Of a stretch of DNA of 53,102 nucleotides, positions 1 through 30,079 are shown one piece after another; the stretch's first letter is position 1, and the number at the start of each line of letters is the position of its first letter. A model generated the notes under the pieces. The model was not told the DNA's origin and made no database searches. It was given only the letters and a program-made list of their open reading frames with translations. The DNA lies in IMG/VR virus record IMGVR_UViG_3300050501_000425; one strand, 5' to 3'. This stretch comes from a virus. A program made the position numbers and the translations under genes.

Positions 1-127
1 GGACAAGGACGCGATGGTAGGATAAGGAACAGATGTAACATTAGTTGATCATGATCGTGGGATCATGGGATGAATGGATCACGAGTCGTCCGAAGGACGA
101 TGATCTTGAGGAGGGAGGAGGGGGATG
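1..127. repeat. Left terminal inverted repeat (127 bp)
   Basis: Bases 1-127 are the exact reverse complement of 52976-53102, compared base by base. Identity ends at 128 (g versus t). The repeat looks lower in GC and is GATC-rich. It contains the hairpin TCGTCC-GAA-GGACGA (86-100). The purine-rich RBS GAGGAGGGAGGAGGGGG (108-124) abuts ATG 125-127. Confidence 0.95.
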
Positions 128-442
128 GAGATATACGGGACCGATGGGACCAAGCGCTCCGGCAGTCCGGGCGAGCTGGCCCAGGTGGACCAGATCACGG
201 CGAAGTTCACGTCTCTGCGCAACCAGTTGCTTGCCATCCAGTGCGCCACGATGGCCGCGATGGTACAGAACAGCCCGGCCGCCGTGGCTGTCGAGGAGCA
301 GATGAGCGAGCTGCACGGGAAGCTGTACCGGGTGCTCGATGACTGGCTGCGCGATGTCCGGACGGTCGATGAGCCGGTCAGCTTCATCATGTTTTTGATC
401 AAGGACTTGGCTGATGCTTCGGCCGGGGGGTGGCGCCCATGA
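125..442 (+). CDS. Hypothetical protein (105 aa), first inward gene of the left end
   Basis: ORF track. The ATG is the last 3 nt of the TIR and is preceded by the TIR-encoded RBS. Amino-acid composition looks coding. Confidence 0.7.
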   Translation: MEIYGTDGTKRSGSPGELAQVDQITAKFTSLRNQLLAIQCATMAAMVQNSPAAVAVEEQMSELHGKLYRVLDDWLRDVRTVDEPVSFIMFLIKDLADASAGGWRP

Positions 443-633
443 TCCGAGTCGAGATCCGCATTACCGTCGAGGACGACACCTTCGAGGTGACCGCTGGGCG
501 TGTCCCGTTGGTTCAGCGCAACGCCGATGGGCGCAACGCCCTGGCGGCGGCCAGCTTGGGCCGCTTGTGGACCAAGGCGTGCCGGGATGCTCAGGCGTGG
601 GTTGACGCCAGGCCGGAGAACGGGAATGCCTAG
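439..633 (+). CDS. Hypothetical protein (64 aa)
   Basis: Same frame as ORF 430..633. ATG 439 overlaps the upstream stop (ATGA coupling). Confidence 0.6.
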   Translation: MIRVEIRITVEDDTFEVTAGRVPLVQRNADGRNALAAASLGRLWTKACRDAQAWVDARPENGNA

Positions 634-862
634 ATCAAAGACCACTGGCCGCCGACACGAGATCACCTACGAGTACCTGGTCCAGGGTGGGACCAGGCGC
701 ACTCGTGCCACCTGCGTCTGCGGGAAGCTGGCGACACCGTTCCGATTCACTGCCGCCCAGGCCGAAGAGGACGCCCGGGATCACATGCACAATGTTCCCA
801 GCAAGGGAAAGCCGCCACACAGGGAAGTCAGTAGCCCTTGGGCGGAGTCACTGCAGTATTGA
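626..862 (+). CDS. Hypothetical protein (78 aa)
   Basis: Frame of ORF 500..862. ATG 626 overlaps the upstream TAG (aATGccTAG). Product begins MPRSKTTGRRHEITYEYLV... Confidence 0.6.
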   Translation: MPRSKTTGRRHEITYEYLVQGGTRRTRATCVCGKLATPFRFTAAQAEEDARDHMHNVPSKGKPPHREVSSPWAESLQY

Positions 863-864
863 TC

Positions 865-990
865 ATGAGAGGAAATGGTCAAGTGCCTGACGACAAACCC
901 TCACCCTGGGTCCAGGGCGTGCTCATCGCCATGATCGTGGCCATCGTCTTGGGCATCGTGTTCTGCATCGTGCCCAAGCTCAACCCCTGA
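865..990 (+). CDS. Small membrane protein (41 aa)
   Basis: My translation: MRGNGQVPDDKPSPWVQGVLIAMIVAIVLGIVFCIVPKLNP. It has one hydrophobic helix and starts 2 nt after the upstream stop. Confidence 0.5.
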   Translation: MRGNGQVPDDKPSPWVQGVLIAMIVAIVLGIVFCIVPKLNP

Positions 991-1034
991 GCTAAGATGA
1001 CCCCGCCGTACAGGGGGTGACAAGCCTCCCAGGG

Positions 1035-1211
1035 TCACACCTGGGGGGCTTGGTCTATGGGGACCCAGCGCTTGCCGTCAAAACGCTCAACTCGAAAACG
1101 CTCGGGGTGCTTCAGCTCCCCGTCCAACCATTTGAGCGCGCGGGCGTCGATGTCCCGGCGTTCGTGGGACTGAAAAGCAACCCACGCCCGGAACAGTGGA
1201 TGTTCGGCCAT
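1035..1211 (-). CDS. 58-aa ORF, either independent or the read-through extension of the GGQ protein
   Basis: Same frame as 1218..1409 and open for 60 codons after the TGA. An ATG (1211) lies 6 nt after the stop. Product: MAEHPLFRAWVAFQSHERRDIDARALKWLDGELKHPERFRVERFDGKRWVPIDQAPQV. Confidence 0.35.
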   Translation of the reverse strand: MAEHPLFRAWVAFQSHERRDIDARALKWLDGELKHPERFRVERFDGKRWVPIDQAPQV

Positions 1212-1217
1212 ACGCCT

Positions 1218-1409
1218 TCAAGCCAGGCGCTTGTTCTGCAACTGGCTTCTCTCATCGCGCGCTTCGCCCCGCGCTCCGCTGGGGTGATGGATGATGCGGA
1301 CCCCGGTGTCGCGCTTGTTCTGGTTCTGCCCACCCTTGCCCCCGGCTCTGAAGGTTTGCACCTCGCAGTCCTTCAGGGTCACCGAGAAGACCAGTTCACG
1401 TGTCATCAC
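1218..1409 (-). CDS. GGQ-motif peptidyl-tRNA hydrolase domain protein (class-I release factor / ArfB-like), ends at an in-frame TGA
   Basis: Contains RAGGKGGQNQNKRDTGVRIIHHPSGARGEARDERSQLQNKRLA. This is the GGQ loop followed by the ERSQxxNK helix start typical of RF-1-domain proteins. The ORF ends at TGA 1218-1220. Confidence 0.75.
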   Translation of the reverse strand: MMTRELVFSVTLKDCEVQTFRAGGKGGQNQNKRDTGVRIIHHPSGARGEARDERSQLQNKRLA

Positions 1410-4062
1410 TCGAGGTTACGTCGGGCGGCCCCTCGGTGTCCTCCTCGATCCTGCGGATCCTCCACTTGATGACCTTGGTGTGACCTGTCTCTGCCATCTT
1501 CACCAGCTGGTATCCGTCCAGCACCCGGTCTTTGAGCTTCGAGTACACGATTCCCAACTTGCGGGCATAGCCCTCCTGGAAAGGATCATCCAGGCCGTGG
1601 GGATGCGGAGCGCCGCGCTCCCTGCGCAGGGCATCGGTTACGGCCGCCGAGGTGAACTCTGAGCCAGCGAACTGGGTCTCCAGCCACCACAGGTGGGCCA
1701 CCTGATCCTGGCGCTCAAAATCGCTCTCAGAGCGCCACTGCGGCACATTGACCAAGAAGCCTTCGACCCCGGCCACCCAGAGCACCCCCGCCAGGATCTC
1801 CTGCCACTTCTCGAATGAGCCCATCCGGAACGGCAGTGGCGCCACCGGCTTGCCCAGGGCGAACCAGGCGCGCACCAGGGTCAAGCATGCCCGGACAAGC
1901 TCGCGCCGGTTGTCCATGGCCCATTGCCGCAGGTCAGGGTGCTTGAACTCGGAGGCATCACGTGACTCCGGGCGGGCGCCGGGATACTCCAGCCGCACCC
2001 GGTACACCCGGCGGCTCATGTCTCCCTTGACCTGGACCTGGTTGCCCAGGGACACCCAGGTCCGGTTGTTGGGGAACTCCGCCAGGTCGCTGGCGCCCAG
2101 AACCCGGTCCTGATAGCTGTGGGAAGTCAGCGCGCGGGCGAACGCGGCACCCTCGATCTCATGGGCCTCATCGAAAAGCAGCATCGCCGACCCGGACCGG
2201 AAGGCTGAGGTGATGACCTTGCGTTGCTCCTCCGCCTCCGTGGTGTAGGGCAGCGTCTGGGCCGCCTTGCCCGTGGTGAGGATGGAGATGACATCCGCCA
2301 GCAGGTTCTTGCCCGAGCCTGCCTCCTTGGCGTCGATGACGGCCAGCGGGGATGTCGGGATCAGGTCGCGCACGAACGGGGTGATCAGGGTCGCCAGCGC
2401 GTTGGCCTTGTCCGCCTCGGTGTGCAGCGGGAAGTCACCGAGAAGATCATCAAGCAGGAGCGAGCGCGCCGAGGCCACTTGCTCCCGGGTCGGCGCCGCC
2501 GGGATGTCAATCCCTTGCAGCTGCGGATCAAGCTCGAGGAACGAATGGGTGGGCTCGTCATATCCCGGTGTGGAGCAGATCGTGCCGTCCGGGCGCAGGA
2601 ACGGGATCTGGGAAAGCTTGTCCAGCCTTGAGAACTGCTTCGGGAACGCCATGACCATGCCCAGGATCCGTGACTCGATCAGTGCCTCGACGTAGCGCTC
2701 TTCCCCCTTGACGTTGGTCTTGCGGTTGACCACCTGGCAGGTCTGCGCCGTGATCGCGTCCAGAACATCCTTGGTGGCCGGGCGCATCATCAGGCCTTCG
2801 CGTTCGCAGATCACGTTGCCGTAGTTGAACAAGCGGTCCTTGTCCCAGCGCGACACCAGCTCCTTGGTCAGATTCTGTAGCACGAACCAGCGATCATCAT
2901 TGGCCACCAGCATGTTGCGTGTCACCTCCTGGGGCGGCTGCCCCGACGCCACGGGCCATTGAGGGGGCGCCTGCGCCACGACAGCTGGTATCGGTGCAGC
3001 CGATGCGGTCGGCACAGGGCTGGCTGCCACCATCGGGGTGCGTTGCTGGCCGTATCCCCGTGCGCCCAGTTCCCTTGCGGCTGCTGCGAAATCTCCACGA
3101 TGCTCCAGCAATGTATAGGCGCCGAACTTGTTGTACGGCTTCTCGGTGTCGAATTCGGTACTGGATGACCAGACATAGAGCCGATCATCCAGCCCGGTCC
3201 CGGAGAATCCCGTGCTGGCAGACCATCCCTCGATGCGCTTCTTGCCCGGACGCGTCCAGAAAGTCTCGGTCGCGGTGCGGTGGTGCACCCGCCATCCATG
3301 CGGCTCAAGGATTTCCTCCCAGGACGTCCGGGCAGAGAAGTCGTCACCGGGGCGGGTCAGGTTCATGCCGGTCGGTGGTGTCCGGGGCGCCGGTGGCCGG
3401 ATGAACTCGGGTTCGCTGGGCATTTCGTCCAGGGCTTCATGTATTGCTTCATGAAGGGCACAGCGGTCTGTCCACGTGACCGTGGGGACCTTGCCGATCT
3501 TACCGGCGAAGGTGCTCCAGGTGTCACCACTTGGGTGCACGCTGCCGCCTGAAGGGGCCACGATCACATAGCCGCCTTCGCCCCTGGTCTCGGCCAGCGT
3601 CTTGACCTTGGCGTCAGGATTGTCGGCCAGCTCCTCGGGGGTCGCCGGGCGCCTTGCGATCTTGGTGTTCCCGGGCGGCTCACGGTCCAGGCGGTACAGG
3701 AAGTGGATGCCGCCGGACGGGGTCCATTCGGCATACCCGTCTTCAAGCAGCTGGTCAAGAAGTCCGATGACTCCCCGGGCTTGCGCTTCCCACCTTATGG
3801 CGTCCAGGGCCAGGGAGGTGGTGGCCCGGCCTTCCAGCTCGAGCATCTCCAGGTTGCCCGACACCTTGCCGCAGATGATCCCCACGCCCTGGTGGTGTCC
3901 CTGCCGGTAGAAGCCCTCGATCATCTGCCGGGGGGCGGGGGAGCGCATGAACTGCTTCCACTCGCCCATGGGCCGCTTGGTGCCGTCCTGGGCTGGGGGC
4001 CACACACTACAACCTGCGTCATACCAGGCCAGGGCTGCCTCACACAAAAAATCTTGGGTCAT
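1396..4062 (-). CDS. Bifunctional DNA primase-polymerase (PrimPol-like N-terminus) fused to a D5/P4-type NTPase helicase
   Basis: N-terminus AALAWYDAGCSVWPP...GVGIICG...LELEG...GGIHFLY...GGYVIVAPS is PrimPol-like. Walker A is KEAGSGKN and Walker B is LLFDEAHE. ATG 4062 with GGGAG upstream is preferred over TTG 4083. Confidence 0.85.
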   Translation of the reverse strand: MTQDFLCEAALAWYDAGCSVWPPAQDGTKRPMGEWKQFMRSPAPRQMIEGFYRQGHHQGVGIICGKVSGNLEMLELEGRATTSLALDAIRWEAQARGVIGLLDQLLEDGYAEWTPSGGIHFLYRLDREPPGNTKIARRPATPEELADNPDAKVKTLAETRGEGGYVIVAPSGGSVHPSGDTWSTFAGKIGKVPTVTWTDRCALHEAIHEALDEMPSEPEFIRPPAPRTPPTGMNLTRPGDDFSARTSWEEILEPHGWRVHHRTATETFWTRPGKKRIEGWSASTGFSGTGLDDRLYVWSSSTEFDTEKPYNKFGAYTLLEHRGDFAAAARELGARGYGQQRTPMVAASPVPTASAAPIPAVVAQAPPQWPVASGQPPQEVTRNMLVANDDRWFVLQNLTKELVSRWDKDRLFNYGNVICEREGLMMRPATKDVLDAITAQTCQVVNRKTNVKGEERYVEALIESRILGMVMAFPKQFSRLDKLSQIPFLRPDGTICSTPGYDEPTHSFLELDPQLQGIDIPAAPTREQVASARSLLLDDLLGDFPLHTEADKANALATLITPFVRDLIPTSPLAVIDAKEAGSGKNLLADVISILTTGKAAQTLPYTTEAEEQRKVITSAFRSGSAMLLFDEAHEIEGAAFARALTSHSYQDRVLGASDLAEFPNNRTWVSLGNQVQVKGDMSRRVYRVRLEYPGARPESRDASEFKHPDLRQWAMDNRRELVRACLTLVRAWFALGKPVAPLPFRMGSFEKWQEILAGVLWVAGVEGFLVNVPQWRSESDFERQDQVAHLWWLETQFAGSEFTSAAVTDALRRERGAPHPHGLDDPFQEGYARKLGIVYSKLKDRVLDGYQLVKMAETGHTKVIKWRIRRIEEDTEGPPDVTSSDDT

Positions 4063-4364
4063 GAGGAGGCTCCCGGTTGCCAAGGACTGACTTCATATGA
4101 CATGCTGTCCCTACGATTCTCTGTTTATTGAGGGGCACCCTTGCCGGGGTACCCCTCAAATTTTGGCTGAGGACATCGCAACTCATCGATATGAGACTGC
4201 GACGTGCTGATCAGACTAGCCCATCAGGCGGTGCTGGTGTAAGCGCCACCCGGTCAGATATACTGAAGTCCGATGCGGAATGATCCCCGCCTCCCTGGGA
4301 GTAAGATTCCTCTCTCCTCCCTGAGACCCTGGCAGCTACCCCCGTGGCCGCCAGGGTCTTCTCG

Positions 4365-4511
4365 TTACCTCCCCTTGGACCTGTTATTCCAGGTCAGGAA
4401 CATGAAGATCAGGGCCGCCACGAGAAACAGGACCGCCGGGATCATGGAGTCGAACAGGATCGCGGTGACGTAGGTCAACACCGCGAAGATGATCGTCAGA
4501 ATCAGCCACAT
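4365..4511 (-). CDS. Small 2-TM membrane protein (48 aa)
   Basis: My translation: MWLILTIIFAVLTYVTAILFDSMIPAVLFLVAALIFMFLTWNNRSKGR. It directly follows the SSB-like gene. Confidence 0.55.
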   Translation of the reverse strand: MWLILTIIFAVLTYVTAILFDSMIPAVLFLVAALIFMFLTWNNRSKGR

Positions 4512-4525
4512 ATTTACCTATACCC

Positions 4526-5476
4526 CTAGAACGGCGGGTCCTGGGACTGCGGCTGCCCCTGGGCGTTCATGGCCTGGGCCGCCTGCAGCTTGAGCTGGTC
4601 AAGCGTGCTCAGCACCTGTTGCGGGGGCTGCTGCGGGGCCATCTGAGCAGGGGCAACGTTCTGAGCGGGCGCCTGAGCCCATGGATCAGGCTGGCCCTGG
4701 TAGTACCCCTGGGGTGGTGCTGTTTGGGGCACAGGGACCGGCTGGACGGGGTCCTGCTGGTGCTGCGGCGGTGCCTGCTGGTTCCACTGATCCTGGGGCG
4801 GATACTGCTGGACCGGGGGCCGCTGGTTGTACTGCGGTTGCTGCCCCAGCGGCTGGGACCAGGGGTCACCGGCGGGTTGACCGTATCCGGGACCCGGTGT
4901 CACCGGAGTGGTCCATGCATCAGAGGCTGAGGCATTCTGGGGGGGATTGACACGCGGGATCGGGATCAGGAAGCCGGGGAAGGCCGCCATGAAGCTCTGG
5001 CCCCGGCGCACCTGCTGCGCATCCTGGCTCAGCGAGCGCCACAGGAACGGCGGCTTGCCCATGGTGCCGTTGGCCATCTTGGACGCCTGCCCGTAGTAGA
5101 TCACCCCGATCAAGGTGCCGCCGATCTTGTCCCGCCAGGCCTTGTTCAACATCCCAGGGAACACCAACTGGTTGCGCCACTGCGATCCCGGCGCCACCGG
5201 CGGTAGCATCATGCCGTACTGGTCCGGGGTGGACGGGATCGCGTCCAGGATGGCGATATCGGCCACCACCAGAGTCTTCCAGTCATCCTCGGGATCCTTG
5301 GTGCGGAAATCCTTGATCCGCTCCAAGGGCCGCACGATCATCACCAGCCCTGGCCGGGTACCCCTCGGGGTCACCACCTCGGCGATGCGGTCCCATGGCA
5401 CGAACTCGCTCGGATCGCGCTTCTCCCCGCCGCCCAGACTCTCCGTCGGGGTGTCATCAAACTGCGGAATGCTCAT
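4526..5476 (-). CDS. SSB-like protein: globular N-domain, Q/P-rich linker, C-terminal DPPF tip
   Basis: ATG 5476 is preceded by GAAGGAGAA. A long Gln/Pro/Gly-rich low-complexity tail ends in ...SQDPPF, like the acidic tip of bacterial SSBs. I did not recognise the N-domain as a canonical OB fold. Confidence 0.5.
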   Translation of the reverse strand: MSIPQFDDTPTESLGGGEKRDPSEFVPWDRIAEVVTPRGTRPGLVMIVRPLERIKDFRTKDPEDDWKTLVVADIAILDAIPSTPDQYGMMLPPVAPGSQWRNQLVFPGMLNKAWRDKIGGTLIGVIYYGQASKMANGTMGKPPFLWRSLSQDAQQVRRGQSFMAAFPGFLIPIPRVNPPQNASASDAWTTPVTPGPGYGQPAGDPWSQPLGQQPQYNQRPPVQQYPPQDQWNQQAPPQHQQDPVQPVPVPQTAPPQGYYQGQPDPWAQAPAQNVAPAQMAPQQPPQQVLSTLDQLKLQAAQAMNAQGQPQSQDPPF

Positions 5477-5559
5477 TCCCGTTCTCCTTCTTCCCTGTTC
5501 TGCAAACCGTTGTACAGGAGTGTGTACTGGAGTTCTTTGATCAATTCGTCGAGTCTCAT
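5473..5559 (-). CDS. Small charged protein (28 aa)
   Basis: My translation: MRLDELIKELQYTLLYNGLQNREEGERE. It has an ATGA overlap with the SSB-like start and fills the gap after the exonuclease gene. Confidence 0.35.
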   Translation of the reverse strand: MRLDELIKELQYTLLYNGLQNREEGERE

Positions 5560-5565
5560 CCTCTC

Positions 5566-6411
5566 TCACTTTCCGGGGCATCCTCTGGCCCCTGGCTCCT
5601 TCTGGTCTCTGTTCCACATTGGGCACCAACTGCACAACCGGGTAGGTGAACGTTCAATCTCTTGCCACGCCCCGGATTCCGGCAGTCCTAGCTCCATCAT
5701 CCTAGCCCCGATGGTGTGGATGCGCTTGATGGCGCCCAGGGCATGTTCGCGATCATATTCCGTTGTCCACACCCACATGTCCTTGAGCCAGCCCTGGCGC
5801 CCCAAGGCAACCAAGCCGACTCGCTTGACCGGGCGCCCGGCGTTCTCATGGCCAAGGCCGTAGAGCTGTACCTGGGTGACATACTGCAGCGGCGGCCCGC
5901 TGGTGCGCATCTTCTTCAGGTTGTCCGGCGAAGGGAACTTCCAGTCCAGGACCGTCGATGTTTCGATGTCATACAGGTCGGTGTGCCCGGCCACGATCAG
6001 CGACGGGAACACCTCAAGCTCGGTGAGCCACCGCCTGACCCCGTTGACGCCCTGGAAGTCGTTGACGGCCTGTTCCATCCAGGCATGGATGGCGGTGCCC
6101 ACGGTGGCGGGCCAGGAGTCATTGCCGTGGTGGACGGCGGGCATGTTGGCCATCCGGTAAGCCAGCCGCAGATCACACTCCTGGCCCACCTCCGAGCATC
6201 CCAAGCCCACCTGAAGCGACCGGCGGGCGTTGTTGTTGGCCCAGATGACGATCTCGGTCAGGTCCTCCTTGAGTCCGATGTCGAAGCCACTCATCTCGAA
6301 TCCAGGCATAACGTCAAAATCGGGAAAACAGCCCACATGGTAATCGGCCTGGACCGCCCAATCGCTCTCGATGACCGTTCCGCATTTGCGGCACAGCTTG
6401 GCTCCGGTCAT
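5566..6411 (-). CDS. PD-(D/E)XK exonuclease, Cas4/RecB-like
   Basis: Motifs GTAIHAWMEQ, GHTDLYD, VLDWKF, QVQLY, and terminal Cys cluster CSWCPMW...C. ATG 6411 is ATGA-coupled to the upstream gene. Confidence 0.75.
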   Translation of the reverse strand: MTGAKLCRKCGTVIESDWAVQADYHVGCFPDFDVMPGFEMSGFDIGLKEDLTEIVIWANNNARRSLQVGLGCSEVGQECDLRLAYRMANMPAVHHGNDSWPATVGTAIHAWMEQAVNDFQGVNGVRRWLTELEVFPSLIVAGHTDLYDIETSTVLDWKFPSPDNLKKMRTSGPPLQYVTQVQLYGLGHENAGRPVKRVGLVALGRQGWLKDMWVWTTEYDREHALGAIKRIHTIGARMMELGLPESGAWQEIERSPTRLCSWCPMWNRDQKEPGARGCPGK

Positions 6412-6626
6412 CAATCCCACCCCTGGTCCTTGTACTTCCTGATCTCGCGACGGGTCGCCTCTTGCCAGAACCACCAGATCGAGCCACCGGTGATGCGCCA
6501 CAGCTGGCCGCAGTTGCCTTCGGTGCAGCGCCACAGGGAGCCGACCGTTTTCCCCTCTGGCATACGGGCTCTCTCGCCGATCGGTGGACGGCATTTGTGG
6601 GTTCCGGTGTGCACGATCCAGCCCAT
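6411..6626 (-). CDS. Small Cys-containing protein (71 aa)
   Basis: Frame of ORF 6411..6731, with internal ATG 6626 ATGA-coupled to the upstream stop. Contains HTGTHKC...CTEGNCGQLW. Confidence 0.55.
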   Translation of the reverse strand: MGWIVHTGTHKCRPPIGERARMPEGKTVGSLWRCTEGNCGQLWRITGGSIWWFWQEATRREIRKYKDQGWD

Positions 6627-6934
6627 CAAGACTCCTTGGGCTTGAAGATGTCCTTCAGGATCTCCTCCGCCGTGGTGTTCCTGATCTTGACCTTGATCTG
6701 CCCCAGGACGCTCAGCGCCACGATCAGGCACCCCTGGGCGTCATCGACATCCAGATCGGACACCTTCTCGATCCCGGCGAACCAGGCAACATGGTTGCCC
6801 TCGGCGGTCTTGACGAAATCGGGCATCAGCTGGCCCACCTTGGTCTGGCATCCCTTGAACAGGCTCATCAGGTCGTTGAGTGCCTTCGCGCCCTCAATGG
6901 CGTCCTTGGCCGACATGGTCTCGGTGTCTTCCAT
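6626..6934 (-). CDS. Hypothetical acidic protein (102 aa)
   Basis: ORF 6626..6958. ATG 6934 is preceded by GACGAGGGGA. Confidence 0.6.
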   Translation of the reverse strand: MEDTETMSAKDAIEGAKALNDLMSLFKGCQTKVGQLMPDFVKTAEGNHVAWFAGIEKVSDLDVDDAQGCLIVALSVLGQIKVKIRNTTAEEILKDIFKPKES

Positions 6935-7133
6935 GATCCCCTCGTCTTCATCATTCAAGTTGGTGCCGGAAGCCTATCGCAGGGGTACGACAAAAACTGG
7001 TAGCCTGATTGGCGGTGGCGTGCGGCACGTTCAGGCTGGCTCGCGAGGTAAGACTGGGCGGACCCCGGGGTCCCCGGCACAACCCTGGCCGCTGGGAGTA
7101 TCTGCAAGGATGCGGGGGCTCCACCAGCACAAA

Positions 7134-7166
7134 GAAACCCTGCCCCGTGATGAGAGGCAGGGTTTC
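7134..7166 (-). terminator. Stem-loop terminator
   Basis: GAAACCCTGCC-(11 nt)-GGCAGGGTTTC, followed by TTTGTG on the minus strand. It lies 17 nt downstream of the stop of gene 7183..7521. Confidence 0.6.
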
Positions 7167-7182
7167 TCTTTGCGTAGGGCGG

Positions 7183-7521
7183 TTACTCCACAGGGTACTC
7201 GTCGTCGGGTGCGTGCCCCGGACCGGTCTTGAGCACGATGTCGTGCACGTGGGTGGTAGCCGCGCGTACCTCGGTGTACATGTCGTGGAAGTCATCGGCG
7301 TTGGCGAAGATGTTCTCCGCCGTCACGACGCCCCCGGACTCCACCAGCCAGCCCCCACGGACCACGGTCAGGTTGACCCCGCCGGAGTTGAAGGTCAACT
7401 CGGTCGCGGTCTCCGAGACCACGGTGAAGTCGAAGATGGCTGCCGCCAGGTCGGCGGAGTTGGTGCCGTCGTAGGTGTAGGCGTTGCGGGCTTCGAAGAC
7501 AGGCATGGCCATCGCTGGCAT
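7183..7521 (-). CDS. Hypothetical protein (112 aa)
   Basis: ORF 7183..7563. ATG 7521 is preceded by GGGAGG. Confidence 0.65.
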   Translation of the reverse strand: MPAMAMPVFEARNAYTYDGTNSADLAAAIFDFTVVSETATELTFNSGGVNLTVVRGGWLVESGGVVTAENIFANADDFHDMYTEVRAATTHVHDIVLKTGPGHAPDDEYPVE

Positions 7522-7566
7522 ATTACCTCCCAGGTCTACTACGTCTCCTATACCCACAACCATAGA

Positions 7567-7983
7567 TCAAACCACCGTATGCCTGCACCTGACGAAAGAC
7601 GGCCCGTTCTTGCGATCCTGCACCGGCGGATGGCTGCCCTGGCGGACCATGCAGTACAACGTGGTGCCATAGAACTGTTCGGCATACACCTCCACCACCT
7701 CCCCCTTGCGGGGATAGAGCGTCCTCTCCCAGGGTGACCTGGTTGACCTCTCGGTGGGATACGGCTGTGCGCCGACCATCAGCTGGATGGTCACCTGGTC
7801 TTTGAGGGAGCGTCCCGGCGGAGGCTTGCCGGAGCGCCGCGTCGGCTCGAACTCCACCAGGACGGTGACGCTGCCGTCGTCGGGGTCCAGGGTCTTCTGC
7901 AGGGAGGGGAGAAGGATCCAAGCACCCACCCCGAGGATGGCCACCACGAACAAGGTGGGGACCATTCTGACCGTCTTGTTCAT
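7567..7983 (-). CDS. Membrane-anchored protein, tentatively MmpS-like
   Basis: N-terminal TM VPTLFVVAILGVGAWILL, then a roughly 100-aa beta-type domain ending ...LYCMVRQG. Start is ATGA-coupled. Confidence 0.5.
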   Translation of the reverse strand: MNKTVRMVPTLFVVAILGVGAWILLPSLQKTLDPDDGSVTVLVEFEPTRRSGKPPPGRSLKDQVTIQLMVGAQPYPTERSTRSPWERTLYPRKGEVVEVYAEQFYGTTLYCMVRQGSHPPVQDRKNGPSFVRCRHTVV

Positions 7984-8372
7984 GCCTCACACCTGACCAT
8001 TCCGGGGCCGCCTATGGAGTCGAAGCCTTTGTCATGGTTGATCGACTTGCCGTTGCGCAAGATGATGCAGTCGATGAACTCCATCCGGGGATGGATCGAG
8101 GTGACGGTGAAGACCACCCTGACTCCCTTGGCGGCCAGGATCGTCTCACTGTAGGGGGACAGGCGGCGCCTGCGGGTGGGCATGGCAATGCCGTCCAATG
8201 TGATATTGATGAGCATTTCCCTCTGCAGGGGCAGGACCGCAGGGTCCCACTTGGACGACAGCAGAAGAGACTCATCATCATTGGTCGTATCCGTCACTGC
8301 GTACCAGGCGCCCAGGGTCGCGATGACTGCCATCATCGTGGCATAGGTCTTGATTTTTGTGATTACGCTCAT
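7980..8372 (-). CDS. Membrane-anchored protein, paralogous architecture (MmpS-like, tentative)
   Basis: Internal ATG 8372 is ATGA-coupled. TM is YATMMAVIATLGAWYAV. Contains ...FIDCIILRNGKSI... Confidence 0.5.
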   Translation of the reverse strand: MSVITKIKTYATMMAVIATLGAWYAVTDTTNDDESLLLSSKWDPAVLPLQREMLINITLDGIAMPTRRRRLSPYSETILAAKGVRVVFTVTSIHPRMEFIDCIILRNGKSINHDKGFDSIGGPGMVRCEA

Positions 8373-8773
8373 TTTCCTGAATTCCTGTATGCCGGGATCT
8401 CCACCCGGATTCCCAGCAGTGTCGCTTCGATGATGCATCCGAATGTTCCTGAGCCGGGGACCTTGCTGTGCCCCCCATCCGTGCGGGGAAAGCCCAGCAG
8501 TATATCCGTAGGACCCATGATCCGGTCCCCGACGCCGCGCAACATGCCGACATTGCGTATGGCGCCAGCCGATTTCCCGTAGCGCTCCCAGTCGGCGTAG
8601 AACACATGGTGGGAGATCTTGTTGTCCTGGCACCATTTGAGGGTGAACAGATCGGCCCCCGCCGCGTCCCCCACTCTGATGTGCAACGGGAACGGTCCCC
8701 GGAAGTTGTTCAGCTGGGCCCGGATGAAAGCGCTATCGGTGTGATGGCGCCACCCGGTCACCGCTATGATCAT
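8369..8773 (-). CDS. DUF2493 / SLOG-family protein
   Basis: MIIAVTGWRHH...VGDAAGADLFTLKWC...FYADWERYGKSAGAIRNVGML...GTFGCIIEATLLGIRV matches the DUF2493 pattern. RBS is GGAGAGAGG. Confidence 0.7.
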   Translation of the reverse strand: MIIAVTGWRHHTDSAFIRAQLNNFRGPFPLHIRVGDAAGADLFTLKWCQDNKISHHVFYADWERYGKSAGAIRNVGMLRGVGDRIMGPTDILLGFPRTDGGHSKVPGSGTFGCIIEATLLGIRVEIPAYRNSGK

Positions 8774-8783
8774 TCCTCTCTCC

Positions 8784-9167
8784 TTAGTCCCAGTACCATC
8801 TGCGCCACAGCCAGCGCTGACTCGGTGCATCCTGGTACGAATCGATGTCTTCCCGGTCGCCCGGGGCCGTCTTGATCCAGTTGCTGATCAGCCGCCGCAC
8901 CGCCATCCGGGCGCGCCCTTCCTGGCCGGGATGAGTGCGCCGCCAGCCACTGCGGCCGAAGATCTTCTCGTAGTCCTTGTGCTTGGGCCACCACTCGCAG
9001 TTGGCGTGGTCGCGGCGCCCACGGGGTATGGGCATCGGGAAGTCGATGTCACACCCCCGCTCCTGCCACAGCTTGCCGTGGTGGCGGTGAAAAGCCCTCA
9101 GCCTGTAAGGGAACAGGGGATCACGCACCTGTACCCAGTAGGGCCTGTCCTTGTCCGTGCGGGACAT
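8784..9167 (-). CDS. Hypothetical Trp/Arg-rich protein (127 aa)
   Basis: ORF track. Strong RBS ctaAGGAGGAatcATG. Confidence 0.7.
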   Translation of the reverse strand: MSRTDKDRPYWVQVRDPLFPYRLRAFHRHHGKLWQERGCDIDFPMPIPRGRRDHANCEWWPKHKDYEKIFGRSGWRRTHPGQEGRARMAVRRLISNWIKTAPGDREDIDSYQDAPSQRWLWRRWYWD

Positions 9168-9174
9168 GATTCCT

Positions 9175-9192
9175 CCTTAGGTCAACCTAAGG
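9175..9192. promoter_or_regulatory. Perfect inverted repeat overlapping the RBS of gene 8784..9167
   Basis: CCTTAGG-TCAA-CCTAAGG (7-bp arms). Next to it is TTGACATGACAT (minus sense, 9195-9206). Confidence 0.35.
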
Positions 9193-9471
9193 CCATGTCA
9201 TGTCAACTCCTTTCCGGTGCCCATGGGAGAGCACCATGACACCGCGCCGTCGGGTCCTGGATCGCCAGGAAACGCTTTGTGTCATGGTGCTCATGGTGAA
9301 CGGCTTCGCTGCCGCTCAGCCCGAACATCAAGCTCGCTTCGCTCGCTTGATGAAGGCGCAGGTACGGCTCCCCGGTCCATGCCGCCCAGAGTGTCGAAGA
9401 AGCAACATGGTGGATCATGACCGTCCTTGCCCGACAAAGACAGAACTAGGAAAACGGGTTTGACGCCTTCG

Positions 9472-9543
9472 TGCCCTCGGCTGGGTTCGAACCAGCGTCC
9501 TCGCCGTGCTCTTGGCGCGCTCATCCCACTGAGCTACGGGGGC
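9472..9543 (-). ncRNA. tRNA-like RNA (72 nt) with a defective anticodon arm
   Basis: Minus sense: GCCCCCG UA GCUC AGUGGGAU GAGC ... GCUGG UUCGAAC CCAGC CGAGGGC A. D and T arms are canonical. The acceptor has one C.A mismatch. The anticodon arm is only a 4-bp stem (CGCC/GGCG) with loop AAGAGCAC and no U33. No CCA is encoded. Confidence 0.6.
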
Positions 9544-9544
9544 G

Positions 9545-9634
9545 TTATTCGACAACGAACTCCACGACGAACCAGATCCATGCCACCGCCGCCGCGACGA
9601 ACAGCACGATCAGCCACTCGGCCTTGTGCTTCAT
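9545..9634 (-). CDS. Micro membrane ORF (29 aa)
   Basis: MKHKAEWLIVLFVAAAVAWIWFVVEFVVE. ATGA-coupled to the next micro-ORF. Confidence 0.45.
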   Translation of the reverse strand: MKHKAEWLIVLFVAAAVAWIWFVVEFVVE

Positions 9635-9753
9635 CGATCCATCATCCATTCCATCTGGGTGTAGAGCATGAAGCCCCACAGCGCCAGCCAGGCGAACACG
9701 GCGCGCGTGGTCCACTTCAACACCAGGTCGGGCAATGTGTTTCTGTTTTTCAT
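9631..9753 (-). CDS. Micro membrane ORF (40 aa)
   Basis: MKNRNTLPDLVLKWTTRAVFAWLALWGFMLYTQMEWMMDR. RBS AGGAGG lies 7 nt upstream. Confidence 0.5.
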   Translation of the reverse strand: MKNRNTLPDLVLKWTTRAVFAWLALWGFMLYTQMEWMMDR

Positions 9754-9765
9754 GATGTCACCTCC

Positions 9766-9852
9766 TCAGTCTCGGTGCTTGCCGATCCTGGCGATCGCGC
9801 ATCCGAGAACGTACAACAGGATCAGTATGACGATTGCCGCCGCGAACTCCAT
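9766..9852 (-). CDS. Micro membrane ORF (28 aa)
   Basis: MEFAAAIVILILLYVLGCAIARIGKHRD. RBS AGGAGG. Confidence 0.5.
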   Translation of the reverse strand: MEFAAAIVILILLYVLGCAIARIGKHRD

Positions 9853-9911
9853 GCCGACCTCCTATGATCAAAGGACCAGGGGTGTGGCAGCACCCCCGGA
9901 TCCCGCCGCCG

Positions 9912-9998
9912 TCAGTGGCGGATGAACACGCCGTCGATGAACGCGGCGACGAAAAACAGGACCACTATTCCACCGGCGATCCATAGAAGCTTCTTCAT
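9912..9998 (-). CDS. Micro membrane ORF (28 aa)
   Basis: MKKLLWIAGGIVVLFFVAAFIDGVFIRH. RBS AGGAGGGAGG. Confidence 0.5.
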   Translation of the reverse strand: MKKLLWIAGGIVVLFFVAAFIDGVFIRH

Positions 9999-10014
9999 AG
10001 TCACCTCCCTCCTT

Positions 10015-10092
10015 TCACTGATTCCAGAACACCCAGACCGTCAAGATCAGCAGCCCGAAAGCCCCGATGGCCTTGAATAGATCTGCCCACAT
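10015..10092 (-). CDS. Micro membrane ORF (25 aa)
   Basis: MWADLFKAIGAFGLLILTVWVFWNQ. ATGA-coupled to 10092..10418. Confidence 0.45.
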   Translation of the reverse strand: MWADLFKAIGAFGLLILTVWVFWNQ

Positions 10093-10418
10093 CACTTACC
10101 GCCGGGGATCGGGATGTTGTCGGGAACATCGACCTTGGGGTCATCGACGAAGTCCAGGATCGCGAACCCCGGCCCGCTGGCCAGCCAGCCGATGAGCAAC
10201 AGCATGGAGATGATCCCGAAGGTCATTCCCACACCCTTCTTTCCGGCCTTGAACGCGATCATTGAGAACACCCCCAGCCCGATGGCGATCAAGAGCGCCA
10301 AATCTTTCACCTCCCCTCCTGCTTCATCCGCAGTACCGGCTACTGGTCCACCCTGACGGCCACCAGGAATGATCCCGTAAACCGAGGCGGGAATTTCACC
10401 CGCGAACCACCTACCCAT
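10092..10418 (-). CDS. Membrane protein (108 aa or shorter)
   Basis: ORF track. Two hydrophobic helices (LALLIAIGLGVFSMIAF, FGIISMLLLIGWLA). The start is uncertain; an internal GTG after GGAGGGGAG is possible. Confidence 0.55.
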   Translation of the reverse strand: MGRWFAGEIPASVYGIIPGGRQGGPVAGTADEAGGEVKDLALLIAIGLGVFSMIAFKAGKKGVGMTFGIISMLLLIGWLASGPGFAILDFVDDPKVDVPDNIPIPGGK

Positions 10419-10426
10419 GTCCGTGT

Positions 10427-10558
10427 TTATGACTTGACCAGAAACGTTCCCCAGCCGAACAGGCCTGCGAACAACAGCACGACAAGCGCTTGTTTCGGTT
10501 TCTTCGCGACCAAGAGGGCTATTCCTATCAGGAGTAGCACCCCACTTAGGTATCCCAT
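10427..10558 (-). CDS. Small 2-TM membrane protein (43 aa)
   Basis: MGYLSGVLLLIGIALLVAKKPKQALVVLLFAGLFGWGTFLVKS. TAATG coupling to the vWA gene. Confidence 0.5.
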   Translation of the reverse strand: MGYLSGVLLLIGIALLVAKKPKQALVVLLFAGLFGWGTFLVKS

Positions 10559-11625
10559 TACTTGAGCACCAGCACCTTCGTGCCGACCACCAGGTGGCGG
10601 TTGACCGAGGTGGACTGGACGAAGATGGTGTACTTGTCGTTGAAGTCCGGCGCCACCGACTTGTCGCCGTCGGGCAGCCCGATCATCGCTCGGACCCCGT
10701 CGCCGACGAACACTTTGCTCGTGGCGATCTCCAAGATGGCCAGCTTCTTGTTGCCCTGGATGCGTTCTTTCTTGGACAGCTGGTAGAACACTGAGCCGAC
10801 GGTGAAGCTCCCGGTGGCATGGCGCACGAAGTCCGAGATCTCCCAGACCAGGTGCTTGTCCTTGTTCTCGACACCCTGCCCGCGATCCCGGCGCGGCCTG
10901 GTCACCGGCACCAACACGTAGGCGGAGCTGTCGAGCGGCTTGAGTCCGGCCGCCTTGATGGTGGCGGCATTGACCGCATCGGCGGCCGTGGAGAACAGGG
11001 TCCTGGTGCCGGTCTGGCCGGCGGAGCGCATCGCCATGTAGGTGTCCACGGAGGCGGCCATGGCGACACCGACCTCTTCGACGCCGGTGGCACTGTTGAC
11101 GTCCCAGATGGCGATGTTGCCCACGGGGAAGCCGAAGGACTGGGCGTAGTTCTTGCCGATCGCGTCGGGTACCAGGCAGGCCAGGGTCCACTCGGGGCCC
11201 AGGGATGCCAGCAGGCCCGGAAGGGCGATCTTGTTTTTGGTCCGGGACCTGTTCTCCTGGCCGTCGGTCAGGACGTAGATCAGGAAGCCATGGTCCCCGT
11301 ACTTGACCGGGGTCAACTTGAGGTCCTGTACTGCCAGGGTGGTGGCATCCACCAGCGCGGTCATCCCCGAGGTCTTCACCAGCCCGGCCAGCGACGGCAG
11401 ACGCAGCACGTCCTTGTCGTAGACGATGCAGACCACTTCGTGGTTGAACAGGTAGATGGTGACCCTGGTCTCCTGCTTCAAGTCCTGGCTCATCCTGGCC
11501 AGGTGGGCAACGAGCCCGTCGGTGACCGTGATTACCTGGGACTCCTTGCCCCTCATGGAGTCACTTATGTCGATGCAGAAGGCTACGTGGTTGATGATTC
11601 CCTGATCGATCATCCTACTTGTCAT
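10558..11625 (-). CDS. von Willebrand factor type A (vWA) domain protein
   Basis: MIDAS-type DISDSM near the N-terminus (VAFCIDISDSMRG) with typical alternating beta/alpha pattern. ATG 11625 is preceded by GAGAGGGGA. Confidence 0.7.
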   Translation of the reverse strand: MTSRMIDQGIINHVAFCIDISDSMRGKESQVITVTDGLVAHLARMSQDLKQETRVTIYLFNHEVVCIVYDKDVLRLPSLAGLVKTSGMTALVDATTLAVQDLKLTPVKYGDHGFLIYVLTDGQENRSRTKNKIALPGLLASLGPEWTLACLVPDAIGKNYAQSFGFPVGNIAIWDVNSATGVEEVGVAMAASVDTYMAMRSAGQTGTRTLFSTAADAVNAATIKAAGLKPLDSSAYVLVPVTRPRRDRGQGVENKDKHLVWEISDFVRHATGSFTVGSVFYQLSKKERIQGNKKLAILEIATSKVFVGDGVRAMIGLPDGDKSVAPDFNDKYTIFVQSTSVNRHLVVGTKVLVLK

Positions 11626-11642
11626 CGGTTTCCCCTCTCTCT

Positions 11643-11894
11643 TCAACTCTCGAACCAGATCCCCGTGATGTTTCCTTCAGGGCCTGTACACCACCAGGTG
11701 CTCCTGCCGCCCTCGTCACAGTACTGGTGATGCCGGTGGACGCTACCACCGGACGCCCTGCACGACTTGGCGTCGGCATGCTCACCGGCCGTCGGTGCCG
11801 GACTCTGGCAACCCGGCAGCAGCAAGGACAGCGTTATCCACAAAGACACGGCAAAGGCTGCCCACAGCACTATGGGAACGACTCTTTTGCGCAT
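11643..11894 (-). CDS. Putative lipoprotein (83 aa)
   Basis: Signal peptide plus lipobox: MRKRVVPIVLWAAFAVSLWITLSLLLPGC. Confidence 0.6.
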   Translation of the reverse strand: MRKRVVPIVLWAAFAVSLWITLSLLLPGCQSPAPTAGEHADAKSCRASGGSVHRHHQYCDEGGRSTWWCTGPEGNITGIWFES

Positions 11895-11896
11895 CC

Positions 11897-11998
11897 CTAT
11901 GGCCGCCAGCCGCACACGACTATGGCGATCAGGAAGACCACCAGCCCGGCGCCGCTGATGACCAAAAACTTGGCCTCCCAGTCAAGCCTACTCCACAT
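11897..11998 (-). CDS. Micro membrane ORF (33 aa)
   Basis: MWSRLDWEAKFLVISGAGLVVFLIAIVVCGWRP. RBS AGAGGAGAAG. Confidence 0.5.
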   Translation of the reverse strand: MWSRLDWEAKFLVISGAGLVVFLIAIVVCGWRP

Positions 11999-12197
11999 AG
12001 GACTTCTCCTCTTGTTTGATGCGTGCCGGTGGAACCGTGACAGGAAGCCCTTGATCCCTGTTGTCCCACGGGGCTAGCCCCACCGGCACGACTTTCATGA
12101 CTTCGGGGATGGACGTCACGTCCAGGGCGCCGTGGCCATAATGGATGCCCAGGTCTGGCTCACCTGGCGGACCGAACCTTTACGGTCGCACCCATCG

Positions 12198-12270
12198 CTG
12201 CCAGGGCAGGAGTCGAACCTGCTGCTTCCACACCGTCCCGGACTGCGCAGTCAAGCGGGACATCCTGGCA
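12198..12270 (-). ncRNA. tRNA-sized mimic (73 nt): acceptor plus T arm, with D and anticodon arms replaced by one long hairpin
   Basis: UGCCAGG ... GCAGG UUCGACU CCUGC CCUGGCA G has a perfect 7-bp acceptor and a canonical T arm. Positions 10-36 form GUCCCG-CUU-GACU-GCGC-AGUC-C-CGGGAC. It is followed by a degenerate copy of the GGUGCGA motif (about 12165-12195). Confidence 0.5.
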
Positions 12271-12593: not shown

Positions 12594-12725
12594 TGACTCG
12601 GTGGCACAGTGAACATCCAGGCGAAGCCCGTGATCCGTTGTCTGGATGCTGGATCCACTTAGTGCCACCGGTTTGTTACTAGCATCGGGGCTACGGTCTC
12701 GACCGCGCCGGGGCGCCGAGCTACG

Positions 12726-14462: not shown

Positions 14463-14474
14463 AAAAGTTATTAT

Positions 14475-30074: not shown

Positions 30075-30079
30075 CAGTG

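What the first reader, a model, noticed from the sequence alone, without database searches (positions are those of the whole stretch)
1..127. Perfect 127-bp TIRs whose inner edge is a shared RBS+ATG for two different inward genes
The inverted repeat ends exactly at ...GAGGAGGGAGGAGGGGGATG. ATG 125-127 starts a 105-aa gene. The mirror ATG (52978-52976) starts an unrelated 116-aa Cys-rich gene. The two products diverge immediately after Met. Each terminus therefore carries an identical 5' leader driving inward expression of different first genes, which is suggestive of immediate-early expression from whichever end enters first. The genome has a terminase but no recognisable protein-primed polymerase, terminal protein, or protelomerase. 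How TIR-bearing ends are generated and replicated is therefore unclear. Each TIR also holds a minimal start-stop ORF (ATGTAA, 33-38).
Basis: partly seen in the sequence, partly recalled or inferred. Interest (0 to 1): 0.7.

Follow-up and report, generated by a model that had tools for sequence, protein, structure and literature searches.

The report
Stub of internal 1.9-kb inverted repeat
The 127-base "terminal" inverted repeat is an assembler-length stub of a 1.9-kb inverted repeat lying inside a roughly 67.6-kb soil phage genome, so the window is about four-fifths of that genome and not a linear molecule with special ends.

Summary
The repeat is real: 1-127 and 52976-53102 are 100% complementary, and the arms diverge right after a shared ATG. 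Its outer edge is not a genome end. In independent assemblies of the same phage, contigs carrying either end gene start exactly one assembler k-mer outside the divergence point: 141 nt in MEGAHIT, 127 in the window (the final k of JGI's metaSPAdes workflow), 123 in one JGI contig and 30 in Logan. The sequence beyond window position 1 is identical on both sides.

Other contigs end exactly at ...GGGGGATG. One 1,900-nt contig is the repeat alone, running from CAT to ATG. A 12,968-nt contig runs repeat, then 10.9 kb absent from the window, then the inverted repeat again.

The simplest map is U (52.8 kb), IR (1.9 kb), V (10.9 kb), IR', about 67.6 kb in total. The window is U plus two k-mer stubs.

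The puzzle about terminal repeats and replication disappears.

The IR pair is also seen around V in one relative. It carries two small genes and a conserved, motif-rich, AT-rich non-coding core, and it appears to be homogenised within genomes. Its function (regulatory cassette or origin) and any flip-flop inversion are inferred, not shown.

The parts
1..127 (+). Inner 127 nt of one copy of a 1,900-nt inverted repeat (IR). The outer edge at position 1 is set by the assembler k-mer. The inner edge at 127 is the true repeat boundary.
   Evidence: Searches show a perfect inverted repeat. Searches show the sequence continuing outward to 1,900 nt in L008, L019, L020, L040 and L041. Repeat contigs end exactly at ...GGGGGATG.
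52976..53102 (-). Inner 127 nt of the second, inverted IR copy.
   Evidence: L008 runs from gene B through the whole IR into segment V.
128..52975 (.). Long unique segment U (52,848 nt). It holds the PrimPol-helicase, an exonuclease, RusA, a Ro60 ortholog, TerL with an intein, and the portal, capsid and tail modules.
   Evidence: No part of V or of the rest of the IR occurs in it.
125..442 (+). Gene A (105 aa). It is the first gene read out of the IR on this side, and its ATG is the last 3 nt of the IR.
   Evidence: A 36%-identical homolog sits in the same place next to the IR in relative 1.
52628..52978 (-). Gene B (116 aa, CxxC...CxxC N-terminus). It is the first gene read out of the other IR copy and shares the same ATG and leader.
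   Evidence: Its N-terminal 41 aa are 46% identical to the start of a Thg1-domain (PF04446) gene on the B side of relative 2.
108..124 (+). Purine-rich Shine-Dalgarno tract GAGGAGGGAGGAGGGGG directly before the shared ATG. Its mirror is at 52979-52995 on the minus strand. Positions 105-110 carry the strain variant CTTGAG versus GATGAT.
   Evidence: Read directly.
85..101 (+). Short hairpin GTCGTCC-GAA-GGACGAT in the shared leader. Function unknown.
   Evidence: Read directly. Not tested further.
33..38 (+). Judged to be chance.
   Evidence: 6 observed against 4.96 expected. Not conserved in relative 1.

Best explanation
SHOWN. The window is one edge of a de Bruijn assembly graph. It is the long unique segment U (52,848 nt) of a phage genome plus one k-mer (127 nt) of a collapsed repeat at each end. 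The repeat is a 1,900-nt inverted repeat (IR). It runs from CAT, the complement of the start codon of an outward-reading gene, to the ATG at window 125-127. Two copies bracket U. The same two copies bracket a second unique segment V (10.9 kb of small early-type genes and a DUF4417 nuclease) that the window lacks.

INFERRED (map). The simplest map is circular: U, IR, V, IR', about 67.6 kb. The window then holds about 79% of the genome. Real virion ends would be made by the T4-type large terminase somewhere else.

SHOWN (sequence consequences). The IR stops at start codons on both sides. Four different flanking genes therefore receive two pairs of identical 5' leaders, RBS and ATG: genes A and B into U, and two genes into V.

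INFERRED (biology).
- The IR is a duplicated cassette holding a 137-aa helical protein and a 73-aa protein. It also holds an ~800-nt non-coding core with a CATAGT/ACTATG motif array and a 34%-GC tract.
- This cassette acts as a regulatory and/or replication-origin module, placing the four flanking early transcription units under common control.
- The phage's own recombination functions (RecB/Cas4-like exonuclease, RusA) keep the copies identical by gene conversion.
- The same recombination would invert V relative to U, giving two isomers.
For: k-mer signature:
- The distance from contig start to the divergence point is 141 nt in four MEGAHIT k141 contigs (L001, L009, L010, L017).
- It is 164 = 141 + 23 in L005 and L013, where 23 is the offset of the outermost strain variant.
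- It is 127 in the window, 123 in L003, and 30 in the Logan contigs L007 and L011.
- JGI's workflow ends metaSPAdes at k = 127.

Read-through:
- The sequence beyond window position 1 is identical on the A and B sides.
- L008 links gene B, the whole IR and V.

Collapsed-repeat contigs:
- L018, L019/L036, L034, L035, L038, L039, L040 and L041 all end exactly at ...GGGGGATG.
- L041 is the IR alone at 1,900 nt. L040 is 1,908 nt.
- 14 of the 21 contigs carrying the IR protein are under 2 kb.

Second unique segment:
- L020 (12,968 nt) is IR 1-1900, then V, then 152 nt that are the reverse complement of its own 1749-1900.
- It shares only 127 nt with the window.
- Contigs joining Va to the IR and Vb to the IR both exist.

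Relatives:
- In relative 1 the IR also flanks V. L022 starts with 77 nt that are the reverse complement of L027 9183-9259.
- The two ~65-kb contigs of relatives are about U + one IR + V in size. They carry opposite U orientations next to the same V end.

Homogenisation: two IR variants (16 differences in 1,900 nt) are each found on both the A and B sides.

Start-codon edges.

Non-coding core:
- 20 of the 46 ACTATG/CATAGT sites in the composite genome lie in the two IR cores.
- There is a 9-nt periodic repeat.
- Sequence blocks are conserved in both relatives.
Against: - No reads were available. The expected 2x depth of the IR, the circular map, the physical ends and the existence of both isomers are untested.
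- A short-read graph cannot distinguish one molecule (U, IR, V, IR') from two molecules sharing the repeat.
- Some JGI contigs start 118, 120 or 168 nt out, and two Logan contigs start 17 nt out. These are not a simple k.
- L020 and L008 run through a repeat edge where a strict unitig should stop. Mixed strains in those samples are the likely reason.
- In relative 1 the inner IR edge appears to lie 33 nt upstream of the gene-A homolog. Ending exactly at the ATG is therefore not conserved.
- The U-side copy of the IR was not directly seen in either relative.
- No function could be assigned to the IR proteins.
- No sigma-70-like promoter was found in the leaders.
Confidence: 0.85

Rival explanations
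1. The window is a complete linear genome whose physical ends carry 127-bp terminal inverted repeats, replicated by an unrecognised end-priming or hairpin mechanism.
For: A perfect inverted repeat sits at both contig ends. The window contains full replication, packaging and structural modules.
Against: Every independent contig reaching either end reads past window position 1 into the same sequence, by an amount set by the assembler's k. L008 and L020 continue for kilobases. The length of 127 equals the final metaSPAdes k. No protein-primed polymerase or protelomerase was found.
Confidence: 0.02
2. Two separate linear molecules share the 1.9-kb repeat as true terminal inverted repeats. One is IR-U-IR' (about 56.6 kb). 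The other is IR'-V-IR (about 14.7 kb), as a bipartite genome or a satellite.
For: The assembly graph is formally compatible with this, since short reads cannot phase across 1.9 kb.
Against: The two molecules would expose opposite ends of the IR as termini, so no single end-specific mechanism would serve both. No terminal-protein or protelomerase machinery was found. The contigs of relatives join V, IR and U at about 65 kb, a size typical of the distantly related ~65-70-kb Arthrobacter and Curtobacterium phages hit by the portal and terminase. V carries ordinary phage early-type genes and no replication or packaging genes.
Confidence: 0.07
3. V is a programmed invertible segment flipped by a site-specific recombinase at the repeats, as in the Mu G or P1 C segments, switching expression of the flanking genes.
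For: There is an inverted repeat pair around a discrete segment. Relatives are assembled in opposite relative orientations.
Against: No serine or tyrosine recombinase was found among the proteins scanned in U, V or the IR. The repeats are 1.9 kb and carry genes, rather than being short crossover sites. Because the IR supplies the same leader to whichever gene abuts it, inversion would not change what is expressed. The boundary genes are small early-type genes, not tail-fibre genes.
Confidence: 0.03
4. A purely technical fold-back or chimera. No inverted repeat exists in the phage DNA at all.
For: Inverted ends of exactly k length can arise from graph artefacts.
Against: Both junctions (IR-A and IR-B) and both outer junctions (IR-Va and IR-Vb) recur in many samples and in MEGAHIT, JGI and Logan assemblies. 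The V-side junction pair also recurs in a relative that is about 75-82% identical.
Confidence: 0.01

Closest known systems
Collapsed-repeat contigs in de Bruijn assemblies, and 'ITR' completeness calls in viral metagenomics (CheckV and IMG/VR style)
   Same: The unique edge keeps one k-mer of the flanking repeat at each end, which mimics an inverted terminal repeat. [quoted passage not shown]
   Different: Here the underlying repeat is a genuine, conserved feature of the phage genome, not noise.
Quadripartite genomes with a large inverted repeat: plastid LSC-IR-SSC-IR, and herpesvirus genomes with inverted repeats around a short unique region carrying duplicated oriS (from general knowledge)
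   Same: Two identical inverted copies separate a long and a short unique region. The copies are homogenised. There is a possible duplicated origin-like core. Flip-flop isomers are expected.
   Different: This is a tailed actinophage of about 67.6 kb with an IR of only 1.9 kb. There is no homology to those systems. Isomers and origin function are not shown.
Invertible segments of phages Mu (G), P1 (C) and phiCh1, and the IS-flanked L segment of Halobacterium phage PhiH (from general knowledge)
   Same: A discrete phage genome segment is bracketed by inverted repeats.
   Different: Those use a dedicated invertase at short sites, or IS elements carrying a transposase, and they switch tail-fibre or immunity genes. 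Here no recombinase or transposase was found, the repeat is a gene-bearing cassette, and inversion would be expression-neutral.
Protein-primed TIR genomes (phi29, Cp-1, PRD1) and hairpin-telomere phages (N15, PY54)
   Same: Only the superficial appearance of inverted ends in the contig.
   Different: The repeat is internal. No family-B protein-priming polymerase, terminal protein or protelomerase was found. Replication genes are a PrimPol-helicase plus recombination functions.
Actinoplanes phage phiAsp2, the nearest isolate by capsid (40% identity) and helicase (42%)
   Same: Distantly related siphovirus structural and replication proteins.
   Different: It has no large inverted repeat. Its longest inverted match is 78 nt. 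Its gene order differs and it has a DNA polymerase fusion.

Membership tests
De Bruijn collapsed-repeat artefact (k-length inverted contig ends) | The length of the inverted ends equals the assembler's k and changes with the assembler. | tested here: met
   141 nt (MEGAHIT k141, four contigs), 164 = 141 + 23 (two contigs), 127 (window), 123 (one JGI contig), 30 (Logan k31, two contigs). JGI's final k is 127. Exceptions are starts at 118, 120, 168 and 17 nt.
De Bruijn collapsed-repeat artefact (k-length inverted contig ends) | Separate contigs carrying the repeat stop exactly at the point where the two flanks diverge. | tested here: met
   Eight distinct contigs end at ...GGGGGATG. L041 is the repeat alone at 1,900 nt.
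Protein-primed linear genomes with TIRs (phi29, Cp-1, PRD1 type) | The inverted repeats are the physical ends of the molecule. | tested here: not met
   Contigs read through window position 1 on both sides.
Protein-primed linear genomes with TIRs (phi29, Cp-1, PRD1 type) | A family-B protein-priming DNA polymerase and a terminal protein. | tested here: not met
   No DNA polymerase B hit among the proteins scanned. The replication protein is a PrimPol-helicase. A terminal protein cannot be recognised by sequence with confidence.
Hairpin-telomere phages (N15 type) | A protelomerase gene and a contiguous palindromic tel site. | tested here: not met
   No protelomerase or tyrosine-recombinase hit. 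The arms are separated by 10.9 kb on one side and 52.8 kb on the other.
Site-specific invertible segments (Gin/Cin type) | An adjacent serine invertase acting at short inverted crossover sites. | tested here: not met
   No recombinase was found in the IR, V or the scanned U proteins. The repeats are 1.9 kb.
Large-IR quadripartite genome architecture (plastid or herpes-like, by analogy only) | Two identical inverted copies separating a long and a short unique region. | tested here: met
   Shown at graph level. Around V it is also seen in relative 1.
Large-IR quadripartite genome architecture (plastid or herpes-like, by analogy only) | Copies are homogenised within a genome while strains differ. 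| tested here: inconclusive
   Variant 1 and variant 2 (16 differences in 1,900 nt) each occur on both the A and B sides. The window has 127/127 identity. Phasing within single genomes is not possible without reads.
Large-IR quadripartite genome architecture (plastid or herpes-like, by analogy only) | Two orientation isomers coexist. | not testable with these tools
   Relatives 1 and 2 are assembled in opposite orientations, but the assembler's choice is arbitrary. Long reads are needed.

The most novel reading that the evidence does not exclude
A lineage of soil actinophages has a plastid- or herpes-like quadripartite genome: a 52.8-kb long unique region, a 10.9-kb short unique region and two 1.9-kb inverted repeats. 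The repeat is a start-codon-to-start-codon cassette carrying a duplicated origin or operator array and two small genes. It supplies identical leaders to four different early transcription units. It is kept identical by gene conversion and flips the short region by homologous recombination, giving two genome isomers. Short-read assemblies collapse the repeat, so the lineage's IR protein family is missing from IMG/VR, INPHARED and the GTDB species genomes.
Probability: 0.35. Interest if true: 0.65.

Novelty: new variant of a known kind. Interest (0 to 1): 0.45.

Why it matters
There are two practical points and one biological point.

First, an inverted terminal repeat whose length equals an assembler k-mer (127, 141, 77, 55 and so on) should be read as a warning of a collapsed internal repeat, not as proof of a complete linear genome. 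Here it hides 21% of the genome. It would also wrongly suggest a protein-primed or hairpin replication mode.

Second, the repeat fragments every short-read assembly of this phage group. As a result its IR-borne genes are absent from the curated viral collections searched here.

Biologically, a conserved gene-bearing inverted repeat that ends on start codons at both edges is unusual for a tailed phage. It also carries a conserved motif array. It offers a testable case of co-regulated divergent early units, a possible duplicated origin and genome isomerisation.

Tried and rejected
- Close relatives among isolated phages: none by megablast. Only distant protein matches exist.
- phiAsp2, the nearest isolate, was checked for a similar repeat and has none.
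- IMG/VR scans for the repeat sequence and for the window's own end sequence gave 0 hits.
- The IR 137-aa protein family has no relatives in IMG/VR, GTDB genomes or INPHARED.
- PrimPol relatives in IMG/VR are only about 50% identical and were not pursued.
- P0003's 67.8-kb contig proved to be an unrelated phage sharing one small protein.
- Function of the IR proteins: no Pfam or PHROG match. The AlphaFold model is all-helical with pTM 0.33, and no PDB fold match reaches E <= 0.001.
- Rfam on the IR gave only a chance-level snoRNA hit.
- The sigma-70 promoter and terminator scan of the IR is at background.
- An attempt to reach the B-side end of relative 1's 65-kb contig failed. The homolog search returned no protein from that contig, under the strict 1e-10 E-value limit I had set.
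- The literature search found no described tailed phage with this architecture in the held library. That library is incomplete.
- The ATGTAA start-stop ORF was rejected as chance.

Full report
**1. The observation**

- Window 1-127 and 52976-53102 are 100% complementary. This is the only long inverted repeat in the 53,102-nt window.
- Both arms end ...GAGGAGGGAGGAGGGGGATG. After the ATG one side continues GAGATATAC... and opens a 105-aa ORF (gene A, 125-442 on the plus strand).
- The other side continues TTTCTTTGT... and opens a 116-aa ORF with CxxC motifs (gene B, 52978-52628 on the minus strand).
- Both ORFs have the high third-position GC of real genes in this 62%-GC genome.
- A 127-nt perfect match cannot be chance. 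The sequence-level observation stands.
- The ATGTAA at 33-38 is at chance frequency: 6 observed against 4.96 expected.

**2. The outer edge is set by the assembler, not by the DNA**

Looking up genes A and B by exact protein sequence returned many independent contigs of the same phage. They come from ENA MEGAHIT assemblies, JGI assemblies and Logan assemblies. I aligned their starts and measured the distance from contig start to the point where the A and B flanks diverge.

| Assembly | Contigs | Distance (nt) |
|---|---|---|
| MEGAHIT k141 | L001, L009, L010, L017 | 141 |
| MEGAHIT k141 | L005, L013 | 164 = 141 + 23 |
| Window | - | 127 |
| JGI | L003 | 123 |
| Logan (k = 31, my knowledge) | L007, L011 | 30 |

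- The value 23 is the offset of the outermost base of a strain variant (GATCTTGAGG versus GATGATGATG).
- JGI's workflow runs metaSPAdes with k = 33, 55, 77, 99, 127 (bioRxiv 10.1101/2020.09.30.320929).
- The bases beyond window position 1 (...GGCGCCATGGTCCT|GGACAAGG...) are identical on the A side (L001, L002, L005, L006) and on the B side (L008, L009, L010, L013, L017).
- A few contigs start at distances that are not a simple k: 118, 120 and 168 nt in JGI, and 17 nt in Logan. I note these as unexplained detail.

**3. The repeat itself**

- A metagenome scan for a 31-mer spanning window position 1 found two JGI contigs (L018 and L019). Both end exactly at ...GGGGGATG, which is window position 127.
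- Looking up the 137-aa protein encoded further out (P0014) returned 21 contigs, 14 of them shorter than 2 kb.
- Seven of the eight new loci from that look-up end exactly at ...GGGGGATG. With L018 that makes eight distinct contigs, since L036 is the same contig as L019.
- L041 (MEGAHIT) is 1,900 nt. It starts CATGATCC... and ends ...GGGGGATG, so it is the repeat alone. L040 is 1,908 nt.
- This is the textbook picture of a collapsed repeat node. The repeat contig stops at the divergence point, and each unique neighbour carries one k-mer of it.

**4. What lies between the copies**

- L020 (MEGAHIT, 12,968 nt, a whole contig) starts at CATCCCCC..., the complement of window 127..1. It runs through the 1,900-nt repeat and then through 10,916 nt that share nothing with the window.
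- It ends with 152 nt that are the reverse complement of its own positions 1749-1900.
- L008 (20.5 kb) links gene B, the whole repeat and the start of this extra segment.
- Contigs joining each end of the extra segment (Va and Vb) to the repeat both exist.
- The graph therefore has one repeat edge with U attached twice at its inner end and V attached twice at its outer end.
- The simplest genome is U (52,848) + IR (1,900) + V (10,916) + IR' (1,900) = 67,564 nt as a circular map. The window is 79% of it.
- I could not test read depth, phasing or physical ends.

**5. Relatives**

- The IR protein family (63 cluster representatives) lies almost entirely on contigs of 1-2.5 kb.
- Two exceptions are ~65-kb contigs of relatives whose IR proteins are 75% and 56% identical.
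- Their lengths (65,355 and 65,005 nt) are close to U + one IR + V.
- In relative 1 the assembled order is Vb, IR, A side (PrimPol). In relative 2 it is Vb, IR, B side (DUF8296, MerR, RusA). These are opposite orientations of U, as expected if the assembler chooses arbitrarily at a collapsed inverted repeat, or if both isomers exist.
- In relative 1 a sister-sample contig (L022) begins with 77 nt that are the exact reverse complement of the sequence next to the Vb gene (L027 9183-9259). The repeat therefore flanks V there too.
- L028 ends at L027 10997, which suggests an IR of about 1,815 nt whose inner edge lies 33 nt upstream of the gene-A homolog.
- The U-side second copy was not directly observed in either relative.
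- The nearest isolated phage, Actinoplanes phage phiAsp2 (capsid 40%, helicase 42%), has no inverted repeat longer than 78 nt.

**6. Anatomy of the IR**

- The inner edge is the ATG shared by genes A and B.
- At the outer edge the repeat also ends on start codons.
  - In L020 the 58-aa gene starts at ATG 1898-1900.
  - On the other side, and in the L019-type strain, the shared sequence runs through ATGAATGAGCA. Two different genes start there in two different frames.
- Four different genes therefore receive two pairs of identical leaders.
- Inside the IR are three things.
  - A 137-aa protein. It is all-helical with a long C-terminal helix, and has no Pfam, PHROG or PDB match.
  - A 73-aa protein on the other strand, which I judged by eye to resemble an 89-aa ORF at the same position in relative 1 (sequences; not aligned).
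  - An ~800-nt non-coding half.
- The non-coding half holds 10 copies of ACTATG/CATAGT per IR copy, which is 20 of the 46 in the whole composite genome.
- It also holds a 9-nt periodic TATGTACTA array, followed by a tract of about 34% GC.
- Several of its blocks are conserved in both relatives.
- No sigma-70-like promoter was detected, and no Rfam family.

**7. Homogenisation**

- Two variants of the IR differ at 16 of 1,900 positions.
- Variant 1 is found next to gene A (window, L001, L006, L007) and next to gene B (window, L008, L009, L012, L013, L015, L017).
- Variant 2 is found next to gene A (L002, L003, L005) and next to gene B (L010, L011, L014).
- The architecture predates the split from relative 1. 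This pattern is therefore what gene conversion between the copies would give.
- Without reads I cannot phase copies within one genome.

**8. Gene content and the replication puzzle**

- U encodes the following:
  - a PrimPol-helicase;
  - a RecB/Cas4-like exonuclease;
  - RusA;
  - a Ro60 ortholog;
  - a T4-type large terminase interrupted by an intein;
  - portal, SPP1 gp7-like head protein and protease;
  - major capsid protein, major tail protein and tape measure.
- V encodes small proteins, a DUF4417 nuclease and a DUF7178 protein.
- No protein-priming polymerase, protelomerase, transposase or site-specific recombinase was found among the proteins scanned.
- Because the repeats are internal, none is required. 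This is an ordinary terminase-packaged siphovirus genome as far as can be seen.

**9. Mechanism, with levels of support**

- Shown: the IR is internal, 1.9 kb, bounded by start codons, and flanks both U and V.
- Inferred with good support: one ~67.6-kb genome with a circular map, and copies kept identical.
- Inferred with moderate support (about 0.4-0.5):
  - the IR is a duplicated regulatory and/or origin cassette that puts four outward early units under the same control;
  - recombination between the copies flips V relative to U without changing expression.
- The rival models are true 127-bp TIRs, two TIR-bearing molecules, a site-specific invertible segment, and a pure artefact. They are set out with their evidence in the rival-explanations section above.

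**10. Comparison and novelty**

- As a technical matter this is a known pitfall. [quoted passage not shown] MetaVR treats ITR contigs as putatively complete.
- As biology, it works like the large-IR architectures of plastid genomes and of herpesvirus short regions. It is unlike the Mu, P1 or PhiH invertible segments, which depend on an invertase or on IS elements.
- I found no description of such an arrangement in a tailed phage in the library available.
- I rate it a new variant of a known kind.
- Interest is moderate. The striking claim in the finding (unexplained terminal repeats) dissolves, but what replaces it is a conserved and unusual genome architecture that short-read catalogues systematically miss.

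Noticed in passing
window 15998-17566 (-), 13647-13765 (-), 14166-14245 (-), 12726-12798 (-), 13060-13122 (-), 9472-9543 (-), 13143-14718: A phage-encoded Ro60 (TROVE + VWA) ortholog lies next to a non-coding cluster. The cluster has two sub-threshold YrlA (Y RNA-like) matches (35-37 bits, E 4e-5 to 1e-4), one tRNA-Asn, two odd tRNA-like genes and a 30-nt repeat in 6 copies. This looks like a Ro-Y RNA module.
   Followed up: partly
window 19227-21581 (+): The large terminase (784 aa) is interrupted by an intein or Hint domain at about residues 185-460. It splits the Terminase_6N ATPase domain, and tblastn hits come in two pieces.
   Followed up: no
L041 1-810 (the IR outside the window); equivalent regions L027 9187-10000 and L029 9301-10000: The non-coding half of the IR holds a dense ACTATG/CATAGT array, a 9-nt periodic repeat at 441-524 and a ~34%-GC tract before the 137-aa gene. 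Blocks such as TACTTTCGGTCAGA and CCCCAGGCAAC-AGTCTCC are conserved in two relatives. It could be an origin, an operator array or an ncRNA.
   Followed up: partly
composite genome (window + L020): GATC occurs 684 times in 67.5 kb, about three times what I estimate from base composition. GATCATG-type motifs cluster in the intergenic leaders of V and the IR.
   Followed up: no
L020 1901-2153 versus L019 and L008: A 253-nt insertion carrying a 58-aa gene sits exactly at the outer IR edge in one strain and is absent in others. It is bounded by a ~30-nt repeated leader motif. V also has a repeated 40-90-nt element before several small genes (L020 2543-2584, 3407-3497, 4323-4405).
   Followed up: partly
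window 1218-1409 (-): A 62-aa ORF with a precomputed Pfam RF-1 (PF00472) domain hit lies directly downstream of the PrimPol-helicase gene. It is conserved in relative 1.
   Followed up: no
window about 16180-16490: An A-side MEGAHIT contig (16,193 nt) and a B-side contig from another sample (36,625 nt) both break inside the Ro60 gene region, by my arithmetic from the contig lengths. This may be a strain-variable spot and is not evidence of a physical end.
   Followed up: no
IR 137-aa protein family (P0014-P0076): 63 cluster representatives sit almost all on 1-2.5-kb contigs. None is in IMG/VR, INPHARED or the GTDB species genomes. The whole phage group appears to be fragmented at this repeat in short-read data.
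   Followed up: yes
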